A stretch of DNA of 43,077 nt. Source: a virus. Its lineage: Duplodnaviria; Heunggongvirae; Uroviricota; Caudoviricetes. The DNA is taken from IMG/VR virus record IMGVR_UViG_2563366968_000005, positions 1 through 43,077 of that record, one strand, 5' to 3'. Made by a program: the position numbers. Shown piece after piece: positions 3,001 to 9,000 of this stretch (position 1 is its first letter; each line of letters begins with the position of its first letter).

Positions 3001-6000
3001 GTCACACTGATGATACGGATGTGCTTCTCCGTATACACCATGTTATCGGAGAGCTACCCACATATGGTTATCGTCGGGTATGGGCGCTGCTTCGCAGACA
3101 GGCAGAACTTGATGGTATGCCTGCGATCAATGCCAAACGTGTTTACCGGATCATGCGCCAGAATGCGCTGTTGCTTGAGCGAAAACCTGCTGTACCGCCA
3201 TCGAAACGGGCACATACAGGCAGAGTGGCCGTGAAAGAAAGCAATCAGCGATGGTGCTCTGACGGGTTCGAGTTCTGCTGTGATAACGGAGAGAGACTGC
3301 GTGTCACGTTCGCGCTGGACTGCTGTGATCGTGAGGCACTGCACTGGGCGGTCACTACCGGCGGCTTCAACAGTGAAACAGTACAGGACGTCATGCTGGG
3401 AGCGGTGGAACGCCGCTTCGGCAACGATCTTCCGTCGTCTCCAGTGGAGTGGCTGACGGATAATGGTTCATGCTACCGGGCTAATGAAACACGCCAGTTC
3501 GCCCGGATGTTGGGACTTGAACCGAAGAACACGGCGGTGCGGAGTCCGGAGAGTAACGGAATAGCAGAGAGCTTCGTGAAAACGATAAAGCGTGACTACA
3601 TCAGTATCATGCCCAAACCAGACGGGTTAACGGCAGCAAAGAACCTTGCAGAGGCGTTCGAGCATTATAACGAATGGCATCCGCATAGTGCGCTGGGTTA
3701 TCGCTCGCCACGGGAATATCTGCGGCAGCGGGCTTGTAATGGGTTAAGTGATAACAGATGTCTGGAAATATAGGGGCAAATCCAGGGGGTAAATCCCGGC
3801 GCTCATGACTTCGCCTTCTTCCCATTTCTGATCCTCTTCAAAAGGCTACCTGTTACTGGTCGATTTAAGTCAATCTTTACCGCTGATTCGTGGAACAGAT
3901 ACTCTCTTCCATCCTTAACCGGAGGAGGGAATATCCTGCACTCGCGTACCCATCGACGAACTGTTTCAAGGCTTCTTGGGCGTCGCTGGCGTGCGTTCCA
4001 CTCCTGAAGTGTCAAGTACATCGCAAAGTCTCCGCAATTACACGCAAGAAAAAGCCGCATTGATGCGGCGATGGTAGGTCTGGATATCTTGAGAAATGAA
4101 CAGGCCTCATTGAGTGTGAGGCTGTGGTTAGTCCTTGCGTAGCTCGCTAATTCTTCTATAAGTCTCTGGTGCTTTGTTTCCGTGTATCTTCATTTCAGAC
4201 TTCAACAGAGCAACAAGGGAATCCCATTCGTTGAGGATGCCTTTGAATGCCGGAACGCGCTTTGCAACCTTGTCGAATGAATCTCTGATTTCTGGAATCT
4301 GCTCAACAAGTGCAACGCATCGTCGGAAATCGGCTGCGTCATGTGGAGCGCCGAAGTGATGACCATAGATATTCTTTTTCAGTCCACATGCGATTGAGGC
4401 AAGAGTTGCGCTACTGATGCCGACATCGCCAGTCGATTGCCATTTCAAAACCTTCATAGCCAAATCTGACATTTCTTGTCTCCAATAAAAAACCGCCATC
4501 AGGCGGCTTGGTGTTCTTTCAGTTCTTCAATTCGAATATTGGTTACATTGTTTTCATATATGAATAAATAAATTAGCTTTTTTCGTTGCCTTCGCGTTCT
4601 TTATTAATTTTGACAAACTCGTTTTTACCACGCTCTCCAAATGCGTCTTTAGAGTCGTTGTATCCGCAATCGCAGCACACATAATCACCAGACCATCCAC
4701 GCATTGTTTTTTCTTTTGCAATATTTCCAGAACCGCATTTTGGACAAGACATATCACTACCTCCAAAGCATGAGTGAGATGACAACGTAACATTGATTGG
4801 AGATTAACAATAGATTGCTGATGTAAAAGATATGTATAAGCTTCGCTTTCAAAGTGGAGGCTCTGGTAGCGGCATCCAGTGAGTTACGTCATCCAAGATA
4901 TTTCCTGATAAATACGTGAAAGCTCTATATCTTTTGTAATCAATTGGATTTACAACCCAGTTCCAATATGCGGCCACGATTTCACCTTGACTAAATGCCA
5001 GTAACATTTTGGTGTCTTCCGGCATTCGCTCACTACAGTTTATCCAACTATCCGGAGTTACCGGAGAGTTGCCAGCCAGTCTACGCAAAACAGCCTTAAC
5101 AGCCTCAATACGGTCATCATCGCAATTTTCCAGCGTATCTATGCGGTCGAGCATGATGATGGCGTTATCAATATCAGGATTGCCAGTCCACTCATTACCG
5201 CGATTGGATTCGGCAGCCTGGTTGCCAGATGCTGGCTGATTGTCGGCTTGGTTATAGCTAACAGCACGGCAGGCATCCTCTACGCCTTTAACTGCATCTG
5301 CACAGTAGTTATAGCGATTGCATTCCACTAACTTCTGCTTGAGATTTTCAATTGCTTGCGCGACATCAGCCTGTATTACGGGAACGGGGGGAGCGGCGTA
5401 TACTTCAATTGTCCCATTATCAATAGGCCACTCTCCATCCTTGATGTAGTCACTTGTACCGTCAACTTGCTGTTCTGCAATGTGGAATGCACCTATTGGT
5501 TTTGTCTCAAGCGATGCCAGTGCAATTCGTGCCACTTCCATTTGTTCGCCACGGGTAAGCCCGTTATCAAGCGGATTTTTAATGAATAATTCGATACGTT
5601 CTTTGGTAATAGTGGTCATAGCTATTTCACCTTAATCTCAACATTTCGCAGCTTTAGCTCTACTGGCAGGTCTGACTTTCCGGTTAATGCTAATGCGAGA
5701 TTTTCTGGAGTAATGAGAGCCGTTATTGTTTTCCCCATCGCCAGACGAATAATCATTCGTATCTCGCGATCGTCACATGCTCCCGGCCGAACAATTGAGA
5801 TTTGTCCGTTCATCTCACTCTCCTTTGATGCGAATGCCAGTGGTACTCATTCTCCTGATTTCCCAGAGCACACGAGGAACACCACCGTTTCCGACCGGAT
5901 CGCGTTTACTCCGCAGGGCGACGCTTGATTCCGCCCAGCTTTTTCTTGGAGGAAGCTCTTTCACACGAACAAAACCAGCTGCGCGGAGAGATGCTCCTGA

Positions 6001-9000
6001 TTCATCTGCCTGGGTGTACGTAATACAACGTTGATAACCCATAGCCTTTGCTGCCCGCCAGACAGCACCATAAAGCGCGCTGTTAGCGTTGCGTTCTCCT
6101 GTGGTACATGTGCGATTTACTTCAAGCGTTAATCCATCGTCCAAATGTCGTGCAACAGGTCTACCGGCTGTCGCCACACCTATCAATTCTCCGGCATCAT
6201 TTCTCAGACCAATGCTGAATTTATGCCCCACCGGGGGTTTATTGTGTCGGTGATGTCTGGATATAAACGCTTTCGCAACACGAAGAGTAACCGGTGAAAT
6301 TTGCATTCTCACTCTCCTTTGATGCGAATGCCAGGGGCGCGTGGCACATTAACTTCCACGATGCGCACTGTTGGTTTGTACATCTCAATCGCTGTCAGCC
6401 AGTCAGCTCCTGTCATGCGCTTTTCCACATCGCCATTAGTCCACTGAACCGGTACACCAATAGCCTTCATCGCGATTTCTATTTCCCCGGCGATGGCGCT
6501 TTTTCCGCAACCAGTAAAACCAGAAACAACGACAAGAACTTCGCCTTTGGCTGGTTTTATTTCCCGTGCTTCCAGTTCTGCAATGCGCTTCTCTGCGGCT
6601 TCCAGCTTCTCGCGCATATCGTCAACGTACTCGACCAGAGATCCGCCAGCAGGAATTTCGCATTCCTCGACCAGTTGGAAGTAGATATCAGCTGCGGCCC
6701 GTGTGTTGCTATGCCTAGCGTCGCCCATCTCACCTTCACGAAGAGCATCGCGTTCGGCGGTAAGATTGGCTATTTTGCTGTCTTTGCCTTCCAGCTCAAC
6801 GCGCAGCCTCCCAACCGTAAGCGCAATATCCTCGTTCTCCTGGTCACGGCGTTTGATGTATTGTTGGTTTCTTTCCCGTTCATCCAGCAGTGCCAGCGCG
6901 ATATCTGGCGAAAAGTGCTTCATAAAATCGTTAAGCGCATTAATTCGCTGATCGAAAGGCATTACAGGTGCTTCACCAGCAATTTTTGTTTTTTCAGCGA
7001 TTTCACGAAGCTTTTGATAATCAATCTTGCTCACTGGTTGCCTCCTTTGCGCCACATCGCATTCAGATATTTGTTTTGATTCACTGATGGAAAAGAATTT
7101 CTCTTAAGCAATTCCTCTCTCGATGGCATTGGCTTTACGCGTTGGCGAATAATCATTTCTGCCGGAAGAATGCCGGGATTGTATGCAAGTCCTCTCATGG
7201 TAAATTCCTCAGTCATTACTGATAGCGCCATAGCGTGAGCGGTAATTACGCAGGCGCGGGTCGATATATTCAGGGAAGTGGGTATATGTGGCTTTGCGGA
7301 ATGGTCGGATTGATGTCTGGTAAATTCGCTCGTGTTCTTCTTTCTCTGCAAGCCATATACAGTGGCGAAATTCCTTTTCCTCTTTCGTTTCCTGCGGTAG
7401 AGACATTATTCGATCGTAGTTTTTTCTGAATTTATCCAGCACCTCCGCCTTGGAGCTACCGGAGCAATTGCGCGGGTCATCCGCACCATACAGAGGCGCT
7501 GGCATGATTTTCTCCTGATTAAATTGCGTGAATAGCGTGACGAGGGAAGGGGAGAGTTACTGGTGCAAAGGGTATATCGTCGTCAAAATCCATCGGAGGT
7601 TCGTTGTGTTGTGCTGGTGATGATTGCTGCTGTGGCTTCTGTGATTGCCTGCTGGCTGCTTGTTGTTTGCTGTCGCCAATGCCGCCAAGCATTTGCATCA
7701 CGCCATTAATTCCGACATGAACCTCGGTTGTGTAACGGTCTTGCCCTGACTGGTCTTTCCACTTTCTGGTTCTCAGCATTCCCTCGAAATAAATCTGATC
7801 ACCTTTTTTCACATACTGCCCCACGACCTCAGCCAGTTTCCCGGATACAGCAACACGATGCCATTCAGTCAATTCCTTTTGCTCGCCAGTATTTTTATCT
7901 CGCCATTGTTCTGACGTGGCTATTGTCAGGTTAGCGAACGCTGTACCTGATGGTGAGTATCGAACTTCCGGGTCTTGTCCTACCCGACCAAGGATAATCA
8001 CCTTATTTACGCCTCTGCTTGCCATTTATGCCACCTGTTTTAGTTCGTTAACTCTGATGTTCATTACCTGAACGCATTTAGCCTGCGCCTCCTCGTTGCC
8101 AGCCATTAATTGCCAGTCACGCTGATAACGCTCGATGAGTTTTTTCTTGTCAGTTTCTGTTGATGCATAATCGCTGAAGTCTTTCAGGATTTGTTCGCAG
8201 TCAACCGATGGAGATTTCTGGTTGGTATTTTCTGGTGATGGTTTGTTATCTGATGCTGGGATTGCCCATCCCGGCAGCGATGGAGGGAGCCAGTAAAATC
8301 CTGTTCCATCCTTGAGTTTTGCCCTGTGCCATCCCTGCTTTTTATCGAGAGATGTTTGTGCGAAACCTTCCTCAAGGTTATACAGATACCGACCGATTCC
8401 CCACTGAACGGCAGCGCGCTTCATTGCACCGGAACGACCACCTTTGACGGCTTCTACCTGCGTGTTTTCAGCAGCATCCCATTTGGTTACCCATTCGGAA
8501 TCAATCTTGATTGATATGCCGCATTCAACTCCGCCGTTGTTGGGAATATCGCGGTATTCATTGCGCCATCCTGCTTTGCCGCAAACATCGTCCAGGCGCT
8601 TCATGATTGCCCGGTTCGTGACATAAGCCAGCACCATAGCCCACACCTTGCCATCGCGTGTTTTACCGCTTTGCTGTATTCGCCATTCGATATCTTCAGG
8701 GCTGAATGGCTCATCGAATTTGTTCAAATCCATAATTCACCTCAGAATGGACATGGCCCAAGGAAATAACGCTGATTTAATACTTCAGTCTTTGCCGCAT
8801 TTAAAAATACGCGAACACCTTCACGATCTCCCTTCTGGCGATACATTAACGCCTGCTGCGTGTACATGCGTCTCTGTAACTTGCTCTCCTTCACTGTGGT
8901 TGCAAGTGACATGAATATCTCCTTCGTTACCGATTAATTCTTTCATCTGACGAATGAATTCTTCGTCTGACCAGTTATCTGTAAAACTCATTTCCTGCGA

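What the first reader, a model, noticed from the sequence alone, without database searches (positions are those of the whole stretch)
5811..6331. 27-bp direct repeat at two consecutive gene junctions (…GIRIKGE stop, RBS and next ATG)
CTCACTCTCCTTTGATGCGAATGCCAG occurs at 5814-5840 and 6305-6331 on the plus strand. On the coding minus strand each copy encodes the last seven residues GIRIKGE of one gene, the stop, an AAGGAGAG RBS and the start of the next gene. Two otherwise unrelated proteins therefore share the same C-terminal heptapeptide and junction. This looks like a conserved linker used for modular gene exchange.
Basis: seen in the sequence. Interest (0 to 1): 0.4.

Follow-up and report, generated by a model that had tools for sequence, protein, structure and literature searches.

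The report
Recombination linker at ea22 gene ends
The repeat is real: it is the last seven codons, ribosome-binding site and stop codon of the phage ea22/ead gene family. Hundreds of E. coli, Shigella and Salmonella phages, including lambda, reuse it as a joint between unrelated genes, and here it flanks one inserted DNA-modification-like gene on both sides.

Summary
The repeat is confirmed. It is an exact 28-mer on the coding (minus) strand, CTGGCATTCGCATCAAAGGAGAGTGAGA, at 5813-5840 and 6307-6334.

Each copy encodes GIRIKGE, contains an AAGGAG ribosome-binding site, then TGA, with the next ATG 1-2 nt later.

- **Upstream copy:** ends an Ead/Ea22-like gene.
- **Downstream copy:** ends a 163-aa XF1762/Mom-like gene that lies exactly between the two copies.

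The same sequence is the 3' end of lambda ea22 and the HK620 hkaG/hkaF joint. It occurs in 396 of 50,697 phage records.

In 127 junctions it connects at least 11 unrelated upstream C-terminal domains to at least 13 downstream genes, an association close to random. Homology breakpoints pile up at both copies.

A relative (L005) carries the empty site: one linker and no cassette. Distant Mom-like genes lack the tail, or carry their own lineage's linker variant.

There is no promoter, terminator, hairpin or inverted repeat. Substitutions give no sign of selection on the peptide.

Best reading: this is a Botstein/Clark-type boundary (linker) sequence. It supplies translational coupling and about 17-41 bp of identity for homologous exchange of promoterless cassettes. 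The concept is known; this is a clean, widespread example. Interest is moderate.

The parts
6307..6334 (-). Linker copy B (upstream in transcription). It holds the last 7 codons (GIRIKGE) of the Ead/Ea22-like gene, the SD AAGGAG (6319-6314), the stop TGA (6311-6309) and a 2-nt spacer before the ATG at 6306.
   Evidence: The same sequence forms junctions in many phages.
5813..5840 (-). Linker copy A. It holds the last 7 codons (GIRIKGE) of the XF1762/Mom-like gene, the SD AAGGAG (5825-5820), the stop TGA (5817-5815) and a 1-nt spacer. Its last base is the A of the next ATG (5813-5811).
   Evidence: It is identical to the HK620 hkaG/hkaF junction.
6309..7055 (-). Ead/Ea22-like gene. The ORF runs from the GTG at 7055. 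The likelier start is the GTG at 7034, which overlaps the upstream stop and follows AAGGAGG. The gene has an N-terminal coiled-coil family region, a variable C-terminal domain, and the conserved tail.
   Evidence: Pfam PF13935 E=2e-18. PHROG 250. Start context.
5815..6306 (-). Cassette gene of 163 aa: an XF1762-family, Mom-like (DNA-modification-like) protein. Its last ~10 residues (STTGIRIKGE) are a secondarily acquired Ea22-type tail.
   Evidence: NCBIfam NF045478 E=5e-61, 204.7 bits against a cut-off of 50, matching residues 3-136. PHROG 1384 'Mom-like DNA modification protein' E=4e-42, residues 1-128. Distant homologues end ...EIRRMK*/RRGV* without the tail.
5622..5813 (-). 63-aa gene, homologous to HK620 hkaF. 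It is translationally coupled to linker copy A.
   Evidence: PHROG 1222 E=6.5e-41.
4849..5619 (-). DUF551-domain gene, the next unit of the same promoterless array. In many other phages a gene of this family follows the linker directly.
   Evidence: Pfam PF04448 E=2.4e-19. Downstream cluster 1. Breakpoint pile-up at 5619/5620.
7209..8733 (-). Context only: the phage recombination module just upstream in the same transcription direction. It comprises an Erf-like ssDNA-annealing protein (8026-8733), SSB (7519-8025) and anti-RecBCD Abc2 (7209-7505). These are candidate catalysts of short-homology exchange.
   Evidence: PHROG 1097 E=4e-130 and PHROG 44 E=1.6e-66. Pfam PF11043 E=4e-58.

Best explanation
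The 28-bp repeat is a boundary (linker) sequence of the early-left ea / exo-xis region of lambdoid and P22-like phages. It is the conserved 3' end of the ead/ea22 gene family, and it has two halves.

- **3' half (CAAAGGAGAGTGAnATG):** a strong Shine-Dalgarno, a stop codon and an adjacent start codon. Any gene placed behind it is translated by coupling from the long early transcript, without a promoter of its own.
- **5' half (often CGCGCCGCTGGCATTCGCAT):** it extends the DNA identity between otherwise unrelated phages to about 17-41 bp.

Homologous exchange between co-resident prophages or infecting phages crosses over inside this short identity. It is probably helped by phage single-strand-annealing recombinases such as the Erf-like protein encoded 2 kb upstream. 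The result is swapping of Ea22 C-terminal domains and of downstream genes.

In this window an unequal crossover in the linker placed a promoterless XF1762/Mom-like cassette between an Ead gene and an hkaF-like gene, leaving one linker on each side. The two direct repeats can also loop the 494-bp unit out again.

The shared heptapeptide is a translated by-product of the linker. On the Mom-like protein it is an add-on.

**Shown:** the repeat, its anatomy, its reuse at many junctions, the breakpoint coincidence, the empty site, and the secondary origin of the tail.

**Inferred:** that homologous recombination at the linker is the mechanism, and which recombinase is involved.
For: **The repeat and its reuse**
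- The repeat is exact, with none expected by chance.
- In all 127 junctions it ends an ORF. Where a downstream ORF was called, its start codon usually lies 1 nt after the stop, in some cases overlapping it.
- The 60 residues before the tail fall into 11 unrelated clusters. Downstream genes fall into 13 clusters.
- There are 40 distinct combinations among 106 classified junctions. Random association would give 48.4 +/- 2.0, and complete linkage 13.

**Conservation profile and unbiased samples**
- Across one representative per combination, majority-base frequency is 0.3-0.6 in both flanks. It rises to 0.6-0.82 at -31 to -26, is 1.0 at -25 (outside the searched pattern), and returns to background right after the ATG.
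- Of 80 Ead genes picked by their N-terminus, 38 end GIRIKGE* and about 60 end in a variant of it, on at least 8 unrelated C-terminal domains.
- Lambda Ea22 (PDB 8DSX) ends ...SDAGIRIKGE.
- The HK620 hkaG/hkaF joint is one copy of the same sequence.
- 396 of 50,697 phage records carry it. They include lambda, 933W and other Stx phages, P22-like, ES18 and P1-like phages. A P2-like phage carries the cassette with linkers.

**Breakpoints and the empty site**
- Ends of homology at >=90% identity pile up at window 5810-5819 (57), 5840-5849 (27), 6330-6339 (42) and 6300-6309 (14).
- The best E. coli genome hits stop at window 5811/5810, and no genome of 5,426 covers 80% of the 1.6-kb region.
- Empty site: window 6606->6307 and 5838->5599 map to L005 1296->997 and 1022->783. 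These overlap by 26 bp, which is a single linker.

**The Mom-like gene's tail**
- Homologues at 81-87% identity end natively ...EIRRMK*/RRGV*.
- Other lineages carry the gene flanked by their own linker variant on both sides (L199/L200, L197, L188).

**Length of identity and type of selection**
- The exact identity shared by junctions with unrelated flanks has median 23 bp, IQR 17-26, maximum 41.
- The published minimal efficient pairing segment is 23-27 bp for Red-beta and 31-34 bp for RecA (PMC3945230).
- Substitution types in the 7 codons are 3 synonymous to 9 non-synonymous. The possible changes are 15 to 48, so no peptide-level purifying selection is visible. The SD core CAAAGGAG is invariant.
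- There is no promoter, no minus-strand terminator, no unusual RNA fold and no shared inverted repeat.
Against: - No recombination was observed directly. Breakpoint coincidence and near-random association are the outcome expected from linker-mediated exchange, but selection for working junctions could sharpen the same pattern.
- Half of the unrelated-flank pairs share fewer than 23 bp of exact identity. That is at or below the published pairing minimum, so exchange at the linker alone would be inefficient.
- Many exchanges may instead use one anchor in the linker and the other in the conserved Ead coiled-coil region or in a neighbouring gene.
- The locus samples were chosen by the linker, by the Mom-like protein or by the Ead N-terminus. 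Breakpoint counts are therefore not an unbiased genome-wide estimate.
- The substitution counts are small.
- Other hot breakpoints in the region (5619/5620, 5507, 7050, 6900, 6780, 6570) were not examined for a comparable repeat.
Confidence: 0.7

Rival explanations
1. Function-only conservation. The sequence is kept because it is a very good ribosome-binding site and coupling signal, and perhaps a tolerated C-terminus. Mosaic joints arise by random illegitimate recombination and only in-register joints survive (the Hendrix model). The linker would then mark the boundary without being the substrate.
For: - The SD core CAAAGGAG, the stop and the start spacing are invariant.
- Diverged lineages keep a purine-rich SD at the same place with otherwise different sequence.
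- Many shared exact runs are under 23 bp.
- Illegitimate recombination is the prevailing explanation because most boundaries lack such sequences (PMC3029335).
- The first fusion of the Mom-like gene to a tail, after ...AGAATGA, must itself have been illegitimate or based on microhomology.
Against: - An RBS needs only about 6-9 nt. The identical 5' half (GCTGGCATTCGCAT), including its synonymous sites, has no RBS role yet is shared by unrelated flanks.
- Random joints would not repeatedly leave the same about-28 bp on both sides of a cassette, nor lineage-specific variants on both sides.
- Lambda keeps the linker although no coupled gene follows it.
Confidence: 0.15
2. Peptide tag. The C-terminal ...AAGIRIKGE is a functional short motif, such as a partner-binding or stability signal, that selection attaches to several early-region proteins. 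DNA identity would be a side effect of recent spread.
For: - The linker is always translated in the same frame as a C-terminus.
- Diverged variants keep a loose A-G-I/V-x-x-K/E-G-E pattern.
- According to the structure paper, the lambda Ea22 fold ends with helix alpha-2 and AlphaFold's longer helix is implausible. The tail may therefore be free (PMC10834534).
Against: - Substitution types are 3 synonymous to 9 non-synonymous against 15 to 48 possible, so no excess of silent change.
- Variants G->D, I->T/L/F, E->D/K, K->N and read-through forms all occur.
- Mom-like homologues function in other lineages without any tail.
- The tail sits on at least 11 unrelated folds.
Confidence: 0.07
3. Dedicated mobile-element mechanism. 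The repeats would be a target-site duplication from a transposon or homing insertion, or attC-like sites of an integron-type site-specific recombinase.
For: - A single gene is flanked exactly by direct repeats.
- One linker-bearing upstream gene elsewhere looked, by eye, like an AP2/HNH-type homing endonuclease. This was not tested (L091).
Against: - 28 bp is far longer than known target duplications.
- Both copies exist independently at single-copy junctions in hundreds of phages.
- The cassette carries no transposase, nuclease or recombinase.
- No inverted repeat or hairpin is common to the two copies.
- The upstream edge of conservation is graded rather than sharp.
Confidence: 0.03
4. Local duplication or assembly artefact confined to this genome.
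For: None beyond the presence of two copies 494 bp apart.
Against: - The DNA between and around the copies is not duplicated.
- The same two-linker cassette occurs in dozens of independent contigs and in isolated phages (Kapi1, PhiR44_2).
Confidence: 0.01

Closest known systems
Conserved 'linker' or 'boundary' sequences of lambdoid phages. Sources: modular evolution theory of Susskind & Botstein 1978 and Botstein 1980; Clark et al. 2001, the HK620 genome paper. Both are cited as summarised in PMC2839356, PMC3029335 and PMC2327257.
   Same: A short DNA sequence conserved between otherwise unrelated phage segments and located at gene or module boundaries. It is flanked by interchangeable modules and is proposed to guide homologous recombination while keeping regulation intact. 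One copy here is literally the HK620 hkaG/hkaF junction.
   Different: I could not read Clark et al. 2001, so I cannot say whether this particular sequence is among those it lists. Here the linker is partly coding, as the last 7-10 codons of ea22-family genes, so it leaves a peptide scar on captured genes. It works at the level of single promoterless genes and protein domains rather than large functional modules.
PeSLs of T4-type phages: promoter-early plus stem-loop cassettes that mediate modular shuffling (PMC2839356, PMC4122927).
   Same: Short conserved motifs flank single small genes in hyperplastic regions. Insertion, deletion and replacement events are bounded by the motif, and the motif also provides expression signals.
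   Different: PeSLs are intergenic promoter plus terminator units that isolate each cassette transcriptionally. This linker has no promoter, terminator or stem-loop. It provides translational coupling instead and lies inside the upstream ORF.
Integron gene cassettes (attC sites plus IntI integrase).
   Same: An array of promoterless single-gene cassettes expressed from an upstream promoter, each bounded by a recurring site, with gain and loss of individual cassettes.
   Different: There is no attC-like imperfect inverted repeat and no dedicated integrase acting on it. Conservation has a graded edge. Exchange is presumably by general or phage homologous recombination.
Morons (Hendrix et al. 2000, as summarised in PMC2839356).
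   Same: An extra gene present in one phage and absent from the equivalent position in a close relative (window versus L005 or HK620).
   Different: Morons bring their own promoter and terminator and lack conserved flanking sequences. This cassette has neither signal and has conserved flanks on both sides.
Mosaic ea22 genes of lambda and Stx phages (PMC10834534, PMC7093339).
   Same: The same gene family, with a shared N-terminal and coiled-coil part and unrelated C-terminal domains.
   Different: PMC10834534 states that the carboxy-terminal sequences of its four compared proteins (lambda Ea22 and three Stx-phage variants) bear no similarity apart from a 16-aa segment. That paper did not compare the wider set sampled here. 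In this set, most family members with unrelated C-terminal domains still end in the same ...AGIRIKGE codons.

Membership tests
Lambdoid boundary/linker sequence (Botstein 1980; Clark 2001) | Short DNA sequence conserved at nucleotide level between phages whose flanking DNA is unrelated | tested here: met
   A 24-nt exact core occurs in at least 120 contigs. Flank majority-base frequency falls to 0.3-0.6 within about 10 nt upstream and immediately after the start codon. The exact shared run between junctions with unrelated flanks has median 23 bp and maximum 41 bp.
Lambdoid boundary/linker sequence (Botstein 1980; Clark 2001) | Located at gene or module boundaries | tested here: met
   All 127 occurrences end an ORF. 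Where a downstream ORF was called, its start codon usually lies 1 nt after the stop, in some cases overlapping it.
Lambdoid boundary/linker sequence (Botstein 1980; Clark 2001) | Interchangeable modules on either side (many-to-many association) | tested here: met
   11 upstream by 13 downstream clusters. There are 40 combinations among 106 junctions, against 48.4 +/- 2 if random and 13 if fully linked.
Lambdoid boundary/linker sequence (Botstein 1980; Clark 2001) | Mosaic homology breakpoints coincide with the sequence | tested here: met
   Breakpoints pile up at 5810-5819, 5840-5849, 6300-6309 and 6330-6339. E. coli and phage hits end at the linker edges. Empty site in L005.
Lambdoid boundary/linker sequence (Botstein 1980; Clark 2001) | Actually serves as the crossover site for homologous recombination | not testable with these tools
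   This needs genetic crosses. Only indirect support is available: the length is near the Red-beta pairing minimum and lineage-specific variants flank the cassette on both sides.
PeSL cassettes of T4-type phages | Early promoter plus stem-loop terminator within the conserved motif | tested here: not met
   0 promoter-like sites in 4700-7600 (4.0 expected). No terminator-like site on the coding strand. RNA folding z-scores are -0.13 and +0.57.
Integron attC cassette | Imperfect inverted repeat (hairpin) at the cassette boundary and an adjacent IntI-type integrase | tested here: not met
   No inverted repeat is common to both copies and there is no significant fold. The neighbours are Ead, hkaF-like, DUF551, Abc2, SSB and Erf-like genes.
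Transposon or insertion target-site duplication | Short duplication created on insertion, flanking an element that has its own terminal repeats and transposase | tested here: not met
   The 494-bp unit encodes only the XF1762/Mom-like protein. The repeat pre-exists as a single copy at the same site in relatives.
Moron | Own promoter and terminator; no conserved flanks | tested here: not met
Translationally coupled gene junction | Shine-Dalgarno inside the end of the upstream ORF, with stop and start within a few nucleotides | tested here: met
   AAGGAG lies 6-7 nt before the ATG, in the arrangement TGA-N(1-2)-ATG. The CAAAGGAG core is invariant in 79 distinct contexts. Actual coupling was not measured.
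XF1762 family / Mom-like proteins (the cassette gene) | Match to the curated family profile above its cut-off | tested here: met
   NF045478: 204.7 bits against a cut-off of 50, E=5e-61. PHROG 1384 E=4e-42. Pfam Mom PF25680 scores only 22.4 bits against a cut-off of 27.1, which is below threshold. It is therefore 'Mom-like', not a demonstrated Mom.

The most novel reading that the evidence does not exclude
The ea22-type linker may not be a passive relic. It may be an evolved docking site that turns the early-left region of lambdoid, P22-like and some P2- and P1-like phages into an integrase-free cassette array, analogous to an integron.

In this reading one about-30-bp element supplies two things. 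It is the homology arm for exchange by the phage's own annealing recombinase, and it is the RBS and coupling signal that expresses whatever is captured. Captured genes include candidate anti-restriction genes such as the Mom-like protein. The lineage-specific linker variants would be kept uniform by this traffic.
Probability: 0.3. Interest if true: 0.55.

Novelty: new member of a known kind. Interest (0 to 1): 0.4.

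Why it matters
There is a long-standing argument about how phage genomes become mosaic. One side proposes homologous exchange at short conserved linkers (Botstein, Clark). The other proposes random illegitimate joining followed by selection (Hendrix). The argument persists largely because linkers cannot be found at most boundaries (PMC3029335).

This junction is an unusually clean and abundant example. It is about 28 bp long. It is present in lambda itself and in about 400 sequenced phages. It connects many unrelated partners, and both filled and empty sites are available. That makes the question directly testable with standard lambda or HK620 genetics.

It also has practical consequences.
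- It explains a recurrent seven-residue "scar" on unrelated early-region proteins.
- It warns annotators and structural biologists that this tail is not part of the protein's fold or family.
- It identifies promoterless cargo, here a Mom-like putative DNA-modification gene, that moves between phage families.

Tried and rejected
- **RNA element or terminator.** Folding of 71-nt windows around both copies is no better than shuffles (z -0.13 and +0.57). No coding-strand terminator and no promoter were found.
- **attC-like or palindromic site.** No inverted repeat is common to both copies.
- **Other linker copies or the short GIKEE-type variant in the window.** Nothing convincing was found: one chance-level 3-mismatch hit at 8086-8103. 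The only other family member was a 65%-identity chance-level match at 8879-8909.
- **Local duplication or target-site duplication.** Rejected because both junctions exist independently elsewhere.
- **Peptide-level selection.** The synonymous to non-synonymous count gave no signal, but the numbers are small.
- **Literature.** Clark et al. 2001 is not held. Searches for GIRIKGE and for hkaF/hkaG returned nothing relevant. One search failed on syntax. The epsilon34 paper had nothing relevant.
- **Taxonomic breadth from the species-genome scan.** This was largely uninformative. About 33 of 49 hits are phage-lambda contamination in unrelated assemblies and a few are chance 19-mers. Genuine hits are Escherichia, Shigella and Shimwellia.
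- **Not run.** Structure prediction of the tail and the large protein-database searches were judged unnecessary. Homologues lacking the tail already show that it is an add-on.

Full report
**1. The observation**

No match was expected in dinucleotide-preserving shuffles, even with three mismatches allowed.

Read on the coding (minus) strand, the exact repeat is 28 bp: CTGGCATTCGCATCAAAGGAGAGTGAGA, at 5840->5813 and 6334->6307. It is 31 bp with one mismatch, and the copies are 494 bp apart. It is the only substantial direct repeat in the first 14 kb.

**2. Anatomy**

All genes in this stretch are on the minus strand and tightly packed.

| Gene | Coordinates | Evidence |
|---|---|---|
| Erf-like ssDNA-annealing protein | 8026-8733 | PHROG 1097 E=4e-130 |
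| SSB | 7519-8025 | PHROG 44 E=1.6e-66 |
| Anti-RecBCD Abc2 | 7209-7505 | Pfam PF11043 E=4e-58 |
| Small DUF2737-like ORF | overlaps 7031-7351 | |
| Ead/Ea22-like gene | 6309-7055, likelier start at GTG 7034 | Pfam PF13935 E=2e-18 |
| 163-aa gene | 5815-6306 | |
| 63-aa gene | 5622-5813 | PHROG 1222 E=6.5e-41 |
| DUF551 gene | 4849-5619 | Pfam PF04448 E=2.4e-19 |

The window is a mosaic lambdoid prophage. Its best partial matches are HK97, HK106, Sf101 and vB_EcoP-720R6.

Each repeat copy contains the codons GGC ATT CGC ATC AAA GGA GAG (GIRIKGE) and the stop TGA. AAGGAG lies inside the K-G-E codons, 6-7 nt before the next ATG, which follows the stop after 1 nt (copy A) or 2 nt (copy B).

The 163-aa protein belongs to the XF1762 family: NCBIfam NF045478, 204.7 bits against a cut-off of 50. 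It also matches PHROG 1384, 'Mom-like DNA modification protein', E=4e-42. The Pfam Mom model is below threshold.

The Ead protein and the 163-aa protein share nothing except the heptapeptide.

**3. The sequence is a widely reused junction**

- In all 127 occurrences, including the window and three isolated phages, the core ends an ORF. Where a downstream ORF was called, its start codon usually lies 1 nt after the stop, in some cases overlapping it.
- The 60 residues preceding the heptapeptide fall into 11 unrelated clusters.
- The N-terminal parts of 103 of 124 upstream proteins form one cluster, the Ead/Ea22 coiled-coil region.
- The downstream genes fall into 13 clusters.
- Among 106 junctions with both sides classified there are 40 distinct combinations. 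Random association would give 48.4 +/- 2.0 and complete linkage 13.
- With one representative per combination, majority-base frequency is 0.3-0.6 in the flanks. It rises to 0.6-0.82 at -31 to -26 (CGCGCCGC), is 1.0 at -25 just outside the searched pattern, and returns to background directly after the ATG.

**4. Samples not selected by the linker**

I picked 80 Ead/Ea22 genes by homology to the N-terminal 110 residues only.

- 38 end exactly in GIRIKGE*.
- About 60 end in that or a close variant: GIRINGGE, GIRIKGGE, DIRIKGE, GIRLKGE, GIKVKGE, GIKEESE and read-through forms.
- These tails sit on at least 8 unrelated C-terminal domains.

One of those domains is that of phage lambda Ea22 itself. 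The PDB chain 8DSX_A ends ...YLHMMSDAGIRIKGE.

In curated phage genomes the 37-nt consensus is found in 396 of 50,697 records. These include lambda, HK620 (hkaG/hkaF), 933W and many Stx phages, P22-like Salmonella phages, ES18, and P1-like SJ46. There are 399 places in all, so at most three records hold more than one.

A recent structural paper on Ea22 compared lambda Ea22 with three Stx-phage variants. [quoted passage not shown] That paper did not compare the wider set sampled here, so the shared tail does not seem to be generally appreciated.

**5. The cassette**

I recovered 80 loci through the 163-aa protein and examined them.

- All E. coli-type copies (92-100% aa identity) end ...EIRRMSTTGIRIKGE*. 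They are followed by at least six different downstream genes.
- They are preceded by several junction types: the full linker as in the window, a shorter NIGIKGE* form, an AAGIKEE form, and one form sharing only AGGAGAGTGAGAATG. The NIGIKGE* form is the one seen upstream of the gene in phage PhiR44_2, which is P2-like by its annotated GpQ portal.
- More distant homologues (81-87%) end natively at ...EIRRMK*, ...RRGV* or ...RRR*. The tail is therefore an add-on, fused after ...AGAATGA.
- Three other lineages carry different tails (AAGIKWEAE, AAGIKVEVK, SIETGGEA) that match the linker variant present upstream of the same gene. L199/L200 share GCCGCTGGCATCAAGGTGGAGG on both sides, and L197 shares TTGAGACAGGGGGTGA.
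- The gene has therefore become linker-flanked repeatedly, each time with the local version of the linker.

**6. Breakpoints and an empty site**

Megablast hits to the 1.6-kb region start or stop at the repeat copies.

- Of 5,426 complete E. coli genomes, 2,594 match parts of the region but none covers 80% of it. The best hits end at window 5811/5810, the edge of copy A.
- Across all fetched loci, ends of homology at >=90% identity pile up at 5810-5819 (57), 5840-5849 (27), 6330-6339 (42) and 6300-6309 (14).
- Other pile-ups lie at 5619/5620, 5507, 7050, about 6900, about 6780 and about 6570.
- These loci are a biased sample, so the counts are illustrative rather than a genome-wide estimate.

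Locus L005 is an empty site. Window 6606->6307 and 5838->5599 align to L005 1296->997 and 1022->783, overlapping by 26 bp. L005 therefore has the same type of Ead C-terminal domain joined through a single linker to the 63-aa gene. The window differs by a 494-bp insertion, which is the cassette plus one linker. HK620 shows the same single-linker arrangement.

**7. What the linker is made of**

- The 3' half is a Shine-Dalgarno, a stop and a start. The core CAAAGGAG does not vary in 79 distinct contexts.
- The 5' half (GCTGGCATTCGCAT, often preceded by CGCGCC) has no evident expression role.
- There is no sigma-70-like promoter in 4700-7600 (0 found, 4.0 expected) and no terminator-like site on the coding strand.
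- There is no RNA structure beyond shuffled controls and no inverted repeat common to both copies.
- In the seven sense codons the observed substitution types are 3 synonymous and 9 non-synonymous. The possible changes are 15 and 48. There is no visible purifying selection on the peptide beyond that on the DNA, though the numbers are small.

**8. Mechanism**

The pattern has five features:
- identical short DNA between unrelated flanks;
- near-random reassortment of the two sides;
- breakpoints at the edges;
- filled and empty sites differing by exactly one unit;
- lineage-specific variants on both sides of the same cassette.

This is what homologous exchange within the linker would produce.

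The exact identity shared by junctions whose flanks are both unrelated has median 23 bp (IQR 17-26, maximum 41) and is 28 bp within this window. The published minimal efficient pairing segment is 23-27 bp for Red-beta and 31-34 bp for RecA (PMC3945230). That points to phage annealing recombinases rather than RecA. This prophage encodes an Erf-like one, plus SSB and Abc2, just upstream. HK620 has Sak4 and Kapi1 has RecT, so no single recombinase family is implied.

This step is inference. The linker is at the lower limit of useful homology. Many events probably use the linker as one anchor and a second anchor in the conserved Ead coiled-coil region or in a neighbouring gene. The first fusion of a foreign gene to a tail must have been illegitimate.

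Because cassettes have no promoter, the RBS and coupling half of the linker guarantees expression after each exchange. That would favour retention of the whole unit.

**9. Rivals**

- **Function-only conservation plus illegitimate recombination.** This explains the invariant RBS but not the identical 5' half, nor linkers on both sides.
- **A functional peptide tag.** This is not supported by the substitution pattern or by tail-less homologues.
- **Transposition or integron-like site-specific recombination.** This lacks every defining feature that was tested.
- **A local artefact.** This is excluded by the many independent occurrences.

**10. Comparison with what is known**

This is the 'linker' of Botstein's modular theory and the 'short conserved boundary sequences' attributed to Clark et al. 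2001 for HK620 (PMC2839356; PMC3029335; PMC2327257). One copy here is the HK620 hkaG/hkaF junction itself. I could not read Clark et al., so prior description of this exact sequence cannot be excluded.

It works like the PeSL cassettes of T4-type phages and, loosely, like integron cassettes. It fails their defining features: promoter plus stem-loop for PeSLs, and attC hairpin plus integrase for integrons.

**11. Verdict**

This is a new, well-documented member of a known kind of element rather than a new kind. Its value is as an abundant and experimentally tractable example, present in lambda, for an old and unresolved question about phage mosaicism.

Noticed in passing
L285-L289, L293-L296, L299-L305, L307-L310, L313, L314, L316, L317, L320, L322, L323, L327-L332: About 33 of 49 species-genome hits to the 19-mer carry flanks identical to lambda ea22. 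The species are unrelated: Streptococcus, Prevotella, Streptomyces, Bacillus, Pseudomonas, Shewanella and others. The contigs are about 1 kb with low coverage, or about 48.4-48.5 kb. This looks like phage-lambda DNA contamination in public assemblies.
   Followed up: partly
window 6498-6521 (minus strand): The C-terminal domain of this window's Ead protein contains a Walker-A-like motif, GFTGCGKS, in a domain of only about 75 residues. No family model matched it.
   Followed up: no
window 5619-5622 and about 5507: A second strong pile-up of homology breakpoints lies at the junction between the 63-aa gene and the DUF551 gene (AAGGTGAAATAGCTATG), and about 110 nt into the DUF551 gene. The end ...EIKVK* / GGTGAAATAG resembles the AAGIKVEVK* linker variant of L199/L200. 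It may be another boundary sequence.
   Followed up: partly
L292, L297, L315, L318 (E. coli and Shigella flexneri chromosomes): This is a linker variant in which the stop codon is lost (…AAAGGAGAGGAGCATGGAAATAAAACC). The upstream ORF reads through (GIRIKGEE…) and overlaps the start of the downstream gene.
   Followed up: no
L031, L051, L111 and the lambda-derived loci: In lambda the linker is followed by GATCGGTTTTG instead of GATGGACGGACAAAT, and no coupled ORF follows. This may be a relic of a lost hkaF-like gene start.
   Followed up: no
L091 (upstream gene of its linker): This linker-tailed upstream protein is not Ead-like. By eye its sequence resembles an AP2-type DNA-binding domain, as found in HNH homing endonucleases (…GVTWNPSHKRWIAYIRENGKHKHIGSF…). 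No profile search was run.
   Followed up: no
window 7031-7060 (minus strand): The junction between the DUF2737-like ORF and the Ead gene uses the same style: AAGGAGG inside the last codons (…WRKGGNQ*), with a GTG start overlapping the TGA stop. The longest-ORF start at 7055 is therefore probably not the true Ead start.
   Followed up: partly
H63, H64 (E. coli chromosomes): In some E. coli prophages the same array also carries a gene annotated as having a dATP/dGTP pyrophosphohydrolase domain, next to the XF1762 gene. This hints that the array collects nucleotide- or DNA-modification functions that may act against host defence.
   Followed up: no
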